Below are positions 62,338 to 62,566 of a DNA stretch of 64,000 bases, piece by piece (position 1 is the stretch's first letter; each line of letters begins with the position of its first letter). The notes below the pieces were generated by a model that worked only from the letters and a program-made list of their open reading frames with translations, did no database searches and had not been told where the DNA came from. A program made the translations under genes and the position numbers. The stretch is taken from the IMG/VR virus record IMGVR_UViG_637000270_000013; one strand, written 5' to 3'. This DNA comes from a virus.

Positions 62338-62409
62338 GGTTTTGCGACAGAGAAATGTTGAATGAAGTTGCCGTCACGGTGAAAGCATCCTTGTATCTTG
62401 AAATTTAGT

Positions 62410-62562
62410 TAGCATAGTGACGAATAGATTTGGCAAGGTGTATGTAGTCTGATTCATCCCAGGGTTTATAGCCCGTAGAGAAGCTAATGACGCCTATACT
62501 GAGCCACTCATCTGAAACCTGAACAGTTGTCCGTACTCCATAACGTATTTGCAAGGATGGGT
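62410..62562 (+). ncRNA. Putative bridge RNA of the IS110 element
   Basis: Two stem-closed internal loops; the 3' part CGTATTTGCAAGG resembles the IS621 donor-binding loop as I recall it. Confidence 0.6.
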
Positions 62563-62566
62563 AATA

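What the first reader, a model, noticed from the sequence alone, without database searches (positions are those of the whole stretch)
62383..62566. IS110 left end looks like a bridge RNA whose target guide matches its own insertion flank
Seen: junction AAGCATC-CT-TGTAT at 62383-62396. Loop 1: outer stem GTATG..GTC / GAC..TATAC enclosing ATTCATCC (62452-62459), an inner hairpin GGGTT-TAT-AGCCC, and TAGAGAAG (62476-62483). Loop 2 is closed by ACTCATC/GATGGGT and contains CAGTTGTC and TTTGCAAG. ATTCATCC matches the left flank plus first core base AAGCATCC at 6 of 8 positions. TTGCAAG can pair with the CTTGTAT core/donor sequence. Established: IS110 elements use bridge RNAs with target and donor loops, and this layout parallels IS621 as I recall it. 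Inference: a natural bridge RNA with predicted target about ATTCATC-CT-TCTCT. The cognate recombinase here is broken.
Basis: partly seen in the sequence, partly recalled or inferred. Interest (0 to 1): 0.7.

Follow-up and report, generated by a model that had tools for sequence, protein, structure and literature searches.

The report
Bridge RNA gene of dead IS110 element
The non-coding left end of this broken jumping gene does encode the family's known "bridge" guide RNA, and its guide segments match the DNA around the element's insertion sites, but this RNA is already in a published data set and every copy of its enzyme gene in this genome is broken, so it is a correct but ordinary relic.

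Summary
Observation confirmed; interpretation supported; novelty low.

Window 62392-63195 is the first 804 bp of a 1169-bp IS110-group element (probably ISSgl2 of Sodalis glossinidius). It is 3'-truncated and frameshifted.

Its left end (about 62422-62567) has the IS621-type bridge-RNA layout:
- Target loop: LTG ATTCATC+CC (62452-62460) and RTG AGAGAAG (62477-62483).
- Donor loop: LDG ACAGTTGT (62523-62530) and RDG ATTTGCAAG (62547-62555).

Evidence:
- 13 left and 16 right junctions of this element in the genome give the target consensus nnnCATC-CT-TCTCT, far above random CT sites (z 4.8 and 10.6).
- Among 11 guide variants in relatives from other Enterobacterales, each flank fits its own guide better than other guides (permutation P below 5e-5).
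- The target-loop stem has 5 compensatory pairs.
- RDG and core plus right donor (CT-TGTAT) are the same letters as described for IS621.

A row matching this Sodalis element is already in Supplementary Data 1 of Durrant et al. 2024. The scan has also reported similar relics on other DNA.

All 14 copies in which the recombinase lesions could be scored are broken, and the copies evolve neutrally. Expression could not be shown.

The parts
62383..62389 (+). Left target flank (LT) of this insertion, AAGCATC. It matches the LTG at 5 of 7 positions; the match is CATC plus the first A.
62390..62391 (+). Core dinucleotide CT at the left junction.
   Evidence: CT precedes TGTATC at 12 of 13 left junctions and follows CAGTTG at 16 of 16 right junctions.
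62392..63195 (+). Truncated copy (positions 1-804 of 1169) of an IS110-group insertion sequence, probably ISSgl2.
   Evidence: BLAST of the full-length copy C1:1341496-1342664 against the genome. The name comes from PMC3091646 and was not checked by sequence.
62392..62396 (+). Right donor (RD) TGTAT, the first bases of the left end. The RDG recognises it.
62410..62415 (+). Candidate -10 hexamer TAGCAT (TAAAAT in relatives). The matching -35, 17 nt upstream, would be TTGCTT only in the excised circle (right-end TTG, then core CT, then T); here it reads ATCCTT.
   Evidence: Read from the alignment. The scan finds no promoter in the integrated state. This is inference.
62431..62434 (+). Basal helix of the target module, 5' strand (TGGC). 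It pairs with 62503-62506.
   Evidence: helix 1: 98% of cells paired, little variation.
62438..62449 (+). Target-binding-loop stem, 5' strand, with bulged A 62446. It pairs with 62489-62499.
   Evidence: helix 2: 5 of 11 pairs have changes on both sides. The Sodalis copies have one T x C mismatch (62443 with 62494).
62452..62460 (+). Left target guide (LTG) ATTCATC+CC. It has the same sense as the top strand of LT plus core, so it would pair with the bottom strand.
62462..62474 (+). Hairpin of the target loop, GGGTT-TAT-AGCCC.
   Evidence: Its stem is invariant in 15 sequences. The same GGGTT..AGCCC block is present in published bridge-RNA rows.
62477..62483 (+). Right target guide (RTG) AGAGAAG, complementary to CT-TCTCT on the top strand. 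T 62476 shows no target signal.
62484..62485 (+). Handshake positions of the target loop (CT). The C can pair with the last base (G) of the left donor after strand exchange.
   Evidence: The C is invariant in 15 sequences and the donor ends in CAGTTG. This is inference.
62489..62499 (+). Target-binding-loop stem, 3' strand.
62503..62506 (+). Basal helix of the target module, 3' strand (GCCA).
62517..62520 (+). Probable closing stem of the donor-binding loop, 5' strand (ACCT here, ACCC in most copies). It pairs with GGGT 62559-62562.
   Evidence: Always paired but almost invariant. Other orthologues in the published alignment have AGCCC/GGGCT and GTTC/GAAC at the same place.
62523..62530 (+). 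Left donor guide (LDG) ACAGTTGT. It has the same sense as the right end of the element, ACAGTTG+C, and the last U would form a wobble pair opposite the core C.
62532..62545 (+). Short stem-loop of the donor loop (CGT / ACG with an 8-nt loop).
   Evidence: Invariant in 15 sequences. Much shorter than the IS621 counterpart.
62547..62555 (+). Right donor guide (RDG) ATTTGCAAG. CAAG pairs with CTTG, G pairs with T as a wobble, two U are skipped, and AU pairs with AT of TGTAT.
   Evidence: The same letters and the same donor CT-TGTAT as described for IS621 positions 157-165. Invariant in relatives.
62556..62557 (+). Handshake positions of the donor loop (GA). They can pair with the last two target bases, T and C of CATC, after strand exchange.
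   Evidence: These positions vary among relatives (GA, GC). This is inference.
62559..62562 (+). Closing stem of the donor loop, 3' strand (GGGT).
62568..63195 (+). Recombinase pseudogene (DEDD plus Tnp type). It has a 4-bp duplication within 62672-62680, a stop at 62684-62686, and is cut off after about codon 210.

Best explanation
Window 62392-63195 is a truncated copy of an IS110-group insertion sequence. Its non-coding left end (about 62422-62567) is the gene for an IS621-type bridge RNA.

When the family was active, the RNA was probably made mainly from the excised circle, where the junction completes the promoter. It bound the DEDD/Ser recombinase and held two DNAs by base pairing:
- Loop 1 (LTG ATTCATC+CC, RTG AGAGAAG) chose genomic sites resembling CATC-CT-TCTCT.
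- Loop 2 (LDG ACAGTTGT, RDG ATTTGCAAG) recognised the circle junction ACAGTTG-CT-TGTAT.
The two DNAs were then recombined at the CT core.

What is shown here:
- Element boundaries.
- Guide-to-flank and guide-to-end matches.
- Co-variation of guides and flanks across relatives.
- The helix of loop 1.
- Homology of the protein to IS621 recombinase.

What is inferred by homology: transcription, RNA ends, protein binding and catalysis.

The window copy itself is most likely an inert relic. Its own recombinase gene is broken, no intact copy is left in the genome, and the copies drift neutrally.
For: 1. Boundaries and target. 13 left and 16 right junctions give nnnCATC-CT | element | CT-TCTCT. The match to the guides is far above random CT sites (z 4.8 and 10.6).

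2. Relatives. In 31 related loci plus 4 E. coli records, the two loop-1 segments are hypervariable, while loop 2 and both element ends are conserved.

3. Own guide against other guides. Flanks match their own guide at 3.45 of 6 (left) and 3.71 of 5 (right), against 2.19 and 1.66 for other guides. No permutation of 20000 reached the observed score. Examples:
- L014: predicted CT-GATTAA, found CT-GATTAA.
- L015: LTG TGCCTTC, flank TGCCTTC-CT.
- L058: predicted CT-TAATCA, found CT-TAATCC.

4. Structure. The loop-1 stem has 5 pairs with compensatory changes, 98% of cells are paired, and the signal collapses when partners are slid by 1-3 columns.

5. IS621 match. The RDG letters AUUUGCAAG and the donor CTTGTAT equal those given for IS621 in PMC11208158.

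6. Protein. The recombinase has PF01548 and PF02371. It aligns end to end with IS621 transposase, PDB 8wt6, at E 4e-29.

7. Published record. Supplementary Data 1 of PMC11208160 holds a row with this element's donor junction and left end, carrying the same guides.
Against: - No Rfam family matches.
- The fold energy is no better than that of shuffles.
- No sigma-70 promoter is found in the integrated state.
- RNA-library contigs cover the element, but only at a depth that its copy number can explain, so expression is not shown.
- The distal LTG positions (ATT) show no target signal.
- The LTG has C where the core has T.
- The Sodalis copies carry a T x C mismatch in the loop-1 stem.
- Two left flanks fit only after a 1-nt shift, and two Klebsiella chromosomal copies (L011, L012) do not fit their guide at all.
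- The empty site could not be recovered cleanly from a related genome.
Confidence: 0.9

Rival explanations
1. The left end is only the promoter and 5' leader of the recombinase gene. Site choice is made by the protein, and the resemblance between leader segments and flanks is coincidence or a by-product of repeated insertion into similar DNA.
For: The fold is not thermodynamically unusual. The 3' part of the proposed RNA overlaps the ribosome-binding site and lies next to the start codon. No expression data are available.
Against: Protein-only recognition does not explain why two short leader segments change in step with the flanks across 11 variants, while the protein stays 78-84% identical and the rest of the leader is conserved. 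It also does not explain the compensatory changes in the stem, or the identity with the IS621 RDG and donor.
Confidence: 0.03
2. The bridge RNA genes of these copies are still in use. Although the reading frames look broken, the lineage with the 4-bp duplication makes full-length recombinase by a +1 ribosomal shift at CGG-UUU-UGA (similar to the shift site in release factor 2). The RNA of the window copy could then act in trans.
For: 11 of the 14 copies that retain this region share the same duplication at different loci, so that lineage multiplied after the duplication arose. The duplication creates UUU followed by UGA, and a +1 slip there would restore the frame with one extra residue (read).
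Against: Substitutions among copies are 77% non-synonymous against 75% expected, which means no purifying selection. Several copies with the duplication also carry in-gene deletions or Ser-to-Leu at the catalytic serine. No strong Shine-Dalgarno-like stimulator lies upstream. Mobilisation in trans by a copy that was once intact explains the spread equally well.
Confidence: 0.04
3. The repeated CATC-CT and CT-TCTCT belong to the element itself. On this reading the true ends lie further out and the flanks are not target DNA at all.
For: The right-side consensus is strong; T at the first position after the core is found in 16 of 16 junctions.
Against: Outside CT, every position varies between copies (for example CT-TGTAT, CT-TTTTT, CT-TCACT). 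The left side is only about 60-75% conserved per position. In relatives the same positions differ according to the guide, while the ends TGTATC and CAGTTG stay constant.
Confidence: 0.02

Closest known systems
IS621 bridge RNA and recombinase of E. coli (Durrant et al. 2024, PMC11208160; Hiraizumi et al. 2024, PMC11208158; PDB 8wt6)
   Same: - The RNA is encoded in the left end, upstream of a DEDD plus Tnp (Ser) recombinase.
- It has two guide-hairpin-guide modules.
- The 5' guides have the same sense as the top strand; the 3' guides are complementary to it.
- CT core.
- RDG AUUUGCAAG and donor CT-TGTAT are the same letters.
- The AAACC-type stem lies directly before the linker and the LDG.
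- Handshake positions fit.
- The promoter's -35 is completed only in the circle (inferred).
   Different: - The protein aligns over its full length but is clearly divergent (E 4e-29).
- The RNA is shorter (about 146 nt against 177) and has no evident separate 5' stem-loop.
- The donor-loop hairpin is much shorter.
- The RTG is longer (core plus 5 against core plus 2).
- LDG position 8 is U (wobble) instead of C.
- The second core position of the LTG is C.
- The target is CATC-CT-TCTCT rather than the IS621 target.
- Here the enzyme gene is dead.
The unnamed row of Durrant et al. 2024, Supplementary Data 1 (donor-bridge RNA covariation input), that carries this element's sequence
   Same: The donor junction TTCAAGACAGTTG-CT-TGTATCTTGAAATTTAGTTAGCAT, the LTG GATTCATCCCAGGG, the RTG GTAGAGAAG and the donor loop are all the same. 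Its variant bases are those of the Sodalis copies at C1:2474612-2475776 and C1:2869884-2871020.
   Different: That row is one of 2201 inputs to a bulk analysis, with no name and no discussion. The insertion-site spectrum, the state of the copies and the window's truncated copy are described only here.
Intact sister elements in Klebsiella, Xenorhabdus, Providencia, Serratia, Citrobacter, Symbiopectobacterium and E. coli plasmids (loci L011-L037, L056-L059)
   Same: 78-84% protein identity, the same element ends, the same donor loop and the same architecture.
   Different: They have different loop-1 guides and correspondingly different targets. Their reading frames are intact (322 codons) with the catalytic Ser present.
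ISSgl2 of Sodalis glossinidius (Belda et al. 2010, PMC3091646)
   Same: An IS110-family element of this genome with no terminal inverted repeats and no direct repeats. The contig sizes of G000 match that genome as I recall them.
   Different: The paper called the transposase copies potentially functional and predates bridge RNAs. Here every copy shows a lesion. The identity with ISSgl2 is inferred, not checked by sequence.

Membership tests
IS110-group bridge RNA (IS621 type) | Encoded in the non-coding left end, directly upstream of a DEDD (PF01548) plus Tnp (PF02371) recombinase gene. | tested here: met
   175 nt lie between the junction and the ATG at 62568. Pfam domains were found on the intact-frame copy P0001. 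P0001 aligns with IS621 transposase 8wt6 at E 4e-29 over residues 8-319.
IS110-group bridge RNA (IS621 type) | Target-binding loop: stem, 5' guide, hairpin, 3' guide, stem. | tested here: met
   Helix 62438-62449 with 62489-62499 has 5 compensatory pairs. The hairpin stem is invariant. Slid controls collapse to 28-44% paired.
IS110-group bridge RNA (IS621 type) | Donor-binding loop with the same module plan. | tested here: inconclusive
   The segment order fits IS621, but the region is almost invariant in this subfamily, so co-variation cannot test it. The closing stem ACCC/GGGT is favoured only by comparison with other published rows.
IS110-group bridge RNA (IS621 type) | The LTG equals the top strand of left target plus core; the RTG is complementary to core plus right target. 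| tested here: met
   29 junctions in this genome. 11 guide types in relatives, permutation P below 5e-5. Signal is limited to about 4 left and 5 right non-core positions.
IS110-group bridge RNA (IS621 type) | The LDG and RDG match the element's own joined ends (right end, core, left end). | tested here: met
   The right end reads ..ACAGTTG-CT and the left end starts TGTATC. The LDG is ACAGTTGT and the RDG is ATTTGCAAG. This is the same scheme as in IS621.
IS110-group bridge RNA (IS621 type) | CT core dinucleotide at both junctions. | tested here: met
   12 of 13 left junctions (one has TT) and 16 of 16 right junctions.
IS110-group bridge RNA (IS621 type) | Recognised by the IS621-derived covariance model. 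| tested here: met
   This was met indirectly. I could not run that model, and Rfam 15 gives no hit. However, a row with this element's sequence, and rows of its sister elements, stand in the model-derived alignment published as Supplementary Data 1.
IS110-group bridge RNA (IS621 type) | Expressed as a discrete RNA of about 150-250 nt. | tested here: inconclusive
   Only assembled contigs of RNA libraries were available. They cover the element at a depth that its copy number can explain, and they cannot show RNA ends.
IS110-group bridge RNA (IS621 type) | Binds its recombinase and directs recombination of donor and target. | not testable with these tools
   This needs biochemistry or a plasmid assay.
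IS110 family insertion sequence, IS110 group | Long left end, short right end, no long subterminal inverted repeats, no target-site duplication beyond the shared core. | tested here: met
   The left end is 175 nt and the right end about 25 nt after the stop. The flanks share only CT.
IS110 family insertion sequence, IS110 group | Intact catalytic DEDD residues and catalytic Ser in the recombinase. | tested here: not met
   The window copy is frameshifted and lacks the Tnp domain. Genome-wide, every copy has the 4-bp duplication, or Ser-to-Leu at the position aligned to the IS621 catalytic serine, or a deletion. Relatives have the Ser. These are therefore pseudogene copies of a member, not functional members.

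The most novel reading that the evidence does not exclude
The lineage that multiplied in this genome (11 copies) carries one shared 4-bp duplication, which creates UUU-UGA. If ribosomes shift +1 there, as at the release-factor-2 site, the element would make its recombinase by recoding. The roughly 13 bridge-RNA genes would then still be live, which would make this the first IS110 element controlled by a +1 frameshift.
Probability: 0.04. Interest if true: 0.5.

Novelty: already known. Interest (0 to 1): 0.17.

Why it matters
It does not change what is known. Bridge RNAs of IS110 elements were described in 2024, and this element's RNA is already among the sequences used in that work.

The case has modest value as a natural record:
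- 29 junctions of one guide pair show which target positions mattered in vivo. These are the four bases before the core and the five after it, with mismatches, one-base shifts and a non-matching core position tolerated.
- The genome shows the end state of such a family in a degenerating insect symbiont: many guide-RNA genes left behind with no working enzyme.

For annotation, the 175-nt left ends of ISSgl2-type copies should be marked as bridge-RNA genes or pseudogenes.

Tried and rejected
- Rfam scan of 61800-64000 at E up to 10: only chance hits and no bridge-RNA family.
- Single-sequence fold: z -0.39, uninformative. It also pairs parts of the guides with each other.
- Promoter scan of the integrated copy: none found.
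- Empty-site search:
  - No paralogous empty sites in the genome.
  - Related genomes either lack the flanks or diverge too much. At the one alignable locus (copy at C1:1060665 against G005), similarity runs up to the left junction, but the 45 nt to the right are unrelated. The single-CT empty site is therefore not demonstrated.
- RNA evidence:
  - Four RNA libraries from three studies hold the element only as contigs.
  - Depth over the element is 4-35 times that of the unique flank, which about 14 collapsed copies can largely explain. No RNA starts or ends are visible.
  - No contig shows a right-end-to-left-end circle junction.
  - Neither expression nor its absence can be claimed.
It is not excluded, but it is less likely than ACCC/GGGT.
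- A longer donor-module stem reaching the start codon (CTCAT with ATGAG): possible on paper, but not consistent across relatives that have one A fewer. Dropped.
- The shared 54-bp and 431-bp internal deletions as proof of mobilisation in trans: the 54-bp deletion lies between 12-bp direct repeats and could recur independently, so it is only suggestive.
- A direct run of the IS621 covariance model, or a typed-in IS621 RNA: not done, because no tool gave me that sequence as a reference.

Full report
**What is in the window**

Downstream of them an ATG at 62568 opens a reading frame that stops at 62684-62686. The frame continues in another register to about 63195.

The window lies at C1:1965913-2029912 of a genome of four contigs: 4,171,146, 83,306, 27,240 and 10,810 bp. 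As I recall them, these sizes are those of Sodalis glossinidius morsitans. Belda et al. 2010 describe one IS110-family element there, ISSgl2, without inverted or direct repeats (PMC3091646). I take the element to be ISSgl2 but did not check this by sequence.

**The element and its boundaries**

A BLAST search of the genome finds about 17 full or partial copies.
- The full element is 1169 bp between two CT dinucleotides. The reference copy is C1:1341496-1342664.
- The window copy covers only positions 1-804 and has no right end.
- At 13 left junctions similarity begins at TGTATC, preceded by CT in 12 cases.
- At 16 right junctions similarity ends at CAGTTG, followed by CT in all cases.

**Test of the predicted target**

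Counts at the junctions:
- Right flanks after CT: T 16 of 16, C 11, T 14, C 11, T 15, then no preference.
- Left flanks before CT: C 9 of 13, A 8, T 7, C 10, with no preference further out.

Comparison with 8433 random CT sites of the same genome:

| Side | Observed mean match | Random mean | z |
|---|---|---|---|
| Left (ATTCATC) | 3.23 of 7 | 1.70 | 4.8 |
| Right (TCTCTA) | 4.31 of 6 | 1.54 | 10.6 |

The prediction holds for CATC-CT-TCTCT. The distal ATT of the left guide and the T at 62476 show no signal.

Two left flanks (copies at 1341496 and 2402690) fit only with one extra T before the core.

**Relatives**

The only copy with an open frame (P0001, 322 aa) found 31 loci in Klebsiella, Xenorhabdus, Providencia, Serratia, Citrobacter, Symbiopectobacterium and Pantoea, at 78-84% protein identity. 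I added four E. coli records.

In the alignment of left ends, almost everything is conserved:
- the element ends;
- the block TTAGATTTGG;
- the loop-1 stem;
- the hairpin GGGTT..AGCCC;
- the whole second module from GAGCCACTCATCTGAAACCCGAACAGTTGTCCGT to ATTTGCAAGG.

The exception is the two loop-1 segments, which differ from subfamily to subfamily.

The flanks follow the guides. The base before the AG of the 3' guide (A, C or G) predicts the first base after the core (T, G or C) in nearly all insertions. Examples:

| Locus | Predicted from guide | Found in flank |
|---|---|---|
| L014 | CT-GATTAA | CT-GATTAA |
| L015 | TGCCTTC (5' guide) | TGCCTTC-CT |
| L058 | CT-TAATCA | CT-TAATCC |
| L056 | CT-GTATC | CT-GTGTC (one G-U wobble) |

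Over 11 guide types:
- Flanks match their own guide at 3.45 of 6 (left) and 3.71 of 5 (right).
- Flanks match other guides at 2.19 and 1.66.
- No permutation of 20000 reached the observed value.

Exceptions:
- The two chromosomal Klebsiella copies L011 and L012 do not fit their guide on either side.
- L036 fits poorly.

**Structure**

On 15 distinct sequences:
- The loop-1 stem (62438-62449 with 62489-62499, bulged A at 62446) has 5 pairs with changes on both sides. 96% of its cells are paired (98% over the whole structure), against 28-44% when partners are slid.
- The hairpin stem and the second module do not vary, so co-variation cannot test them.

The IS621 structure paper gives this order for the donor module: stem, two-base linker, LDG, hairpin, linker, RDG, two handshake bases, one linker base, stem. 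Applied to the window, that order gives:

| Segment | Coordinates | Sequence |
|---|---|---|
| Stem, 5' strand | 62517-62520 | ACCT |
| Linker | 62521-62522 | GA |
| LDG | 62523-62530 | ACAGTTGT |
| RDG | 62547-62555 | ATTTGCAAG |
| Handshake bases | 62556-62557 | GA |
| Linker | 62558 | T |
| Stem, 3' strand | 62559-62562 | GGGT |

Other orthologues in the published alignment have AGCCC/GGGCT, GCCC/GGGC and GTTC/GAAC at these two places. That comparison supports this stem.

**Comparison with IS621**

According to PMC11208158, the IS621 RDG works as follows:
- A157 and U158 pair with donor T14 and A13.
- G161 forms a non-canonical pair with T12.
- C162-G165 pair with G11-C8.

This spells AUUUGCAAG against CTTGTAT, exactly the letters found here at 62547-62555 and 62390-62396.

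The handshake rule of that paper also fits:
- The C after the RTG (62484, invariant in relatives) can pair with the last donor base G.
- The G after the RDG (62556) can pair with the last target base C.

The protein aligns with IS621 transposase (PDB 8wt6) over residues 8-319 at E 4e-29. It has PF01548 and PF02371.

Differences from IS621:
- a shorter RNA;
- no evident 5' stem-loop;
- a very short donor-loop hairpin;
- a longer RTG;
- U instead of C at LDG position 8;
- C instead of U at the second core position of the LTG.

**Promoter (inference)**

In relatives a TAAAAT hexamer sits 17 nt after the first base of the left end. The window has TAGCAT there (62410-62415).

The -35 position is then occupied by the last three bases of whatever precedes the core, followed by CT and T:
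- TTGCTT in the excised circle;
- ATCCTT in this integrated copy.

This agrees with the published statement that excision rebuilds the promoter. It also agrees with the empty promoter scan of the integrated copy.

**Already published**

Supplementary Data 1 of Durrant et al. 2024 is the input of their donor-to-RNA co-variation analysis. It contains:
- a row with this element's joined ends and left end, including GATTCATCCCAGGG and GTAGAGAAG;
- rows for the Klebsiella-type sister element, with its targets.

The scan has also reported similar IS110 relics with bridge-RNA genes on other DNA.

**State of the family in this genome**

- Of the 14 copies that keep the region, 11 share a 4-bp duplication that shifts the frame.
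- Five copies have Leu in place of the serine that aligns with the IS621 catalytic serine. This includes the only open frame, which also has G10E next to the first catalytic Asp.
- Others have internal deletions. Relatives have the Ser and open frames.
- Differences among copies are 77% non-synonymous, against 75% expected without selection. The left end is no better conserved than the gene.
- RNA-library contigs cover the element but cannot show expression.

**Verdict**

The observation and the interpretation are right. The closing stem of loop 2 and the exact right end need correction. The object is a known kind of RNA, already listed in published data, and here it is a fossil.

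Noticed in passing
Genome G000, C1: copies at 254967-256069, 512213-513315, 533026-534017, 837694-838789, 2221482-2222586, 3224975-3225859 (54-bp deletion); 2402690-2403421 and 3173460-3174191 (431-bp deletion): Two kinds of internally deleted copy recur at different loci with different flanks. This suggests non-autonomous derivatives, still carrying the bridge-RNA gene and both ends, that were moved in trans. 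The 54-bp deletion lies between 12-bp direct repeats, so it could also have arisen more than once.
   Followed up: partly
window 62672-62686 and 10 other copies: The shared 4-bp duplication creates CGG-UUU-UGA. A +1 slip on UUU would restore the recombinase frame with one extra Arg. The lineage with this duplication is the one that multiplied. Neutral substitution patterns argue against present function.
   Followed up: partly
L018 and L034 (Symbiopectobacterium purcellii), left flank of the element: These copies are inserted into another copy of the same element, exactly at the DNA that encodes its left target guide (flank GTATGCAGCCCGATTTCCC-CT). The guide-coding DNA is itself a half-match target. 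This recalls the 'half-match recombination' named in the title of a 2026 preprint listed.
   Followed up: no
L011 and L012 (Klebsiella pneumoniae ATCC 13883 chromosome): Two copies share flanks of the form ACCCnGC-CT ... CT-CC. These fit neither guide of their own bridge RNA, whereas copies with the same guide on other replicons (L015, L037) fit perfectly. This is unexplained. The insertions may have been guided by a different copy, or the guide region may have been overwritten later by gene conversion.
   Followed up: no
G000 C1:512213 (right junction of the copy at 512213-513315): The right flank reads CT-TGTAT, the first five bases of the element's own left end, instead of CT-TCTCT. It could be a chance match (about 1 in 60 over 16 junctions), a remnant of a joined-ends form, or a donor-like target.
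   Followed up: no
G000 C1:2221482 (left junction): Aberrant left end: the flank ends in TT, not CT, and the element starts TGTATC-CTTGTACC instead of TGTATCTTGAAA, as if the first bases were partly duplicated. The same form appears in contigs of all four RNA libraries.
   Followed up: no
window 63196-63998 and G000 C1:1961774-1962319: The window copy is cut off at element position 804. It abuts a minus-strand fragment of a phage replication gene A (PF05840, 63249-63998). A separate fragment of the element (positions 624-1169, opposite orientation) lies about 3.6 kb before the window start. Fragments of the element therefore bracket the whole 66-kb prophage-rich window, and they overlap by 181 bp, so they are not two halves of one copy.
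   Followed up: no
window 59862-61476: Terminase large-subunit C-terminal domain (PF17289, E 8e-42) and a portal-like ORF below the Pfam cut-off. Both look fragmented, consistent with a decaying prophage next to the element.
   Followed up: no
window 62672, RNA-library contigs X5, X6, X10: In three of the four RNA libraries, the dominant contig over the element lacks the 4-bp duplication. The form without the frameshift is therefore the one assembled there. Contigs cannot say whether that reflects another strain or higher expression of the two copies without the duplication.
   Followed up: no
L059 (E. coli plasmid pN96-1), left end: This relative starts CT-TCAATCTTAAAA instead of CT-TGTATCTT, while its RDG is unchanged. 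Its left flank does not fit its guide, but its right flank does (CT-GTTTAT against predicted CT-GTTTAA). The left end may have been rearranged next to an IS3 fragment.
   Followed up: no
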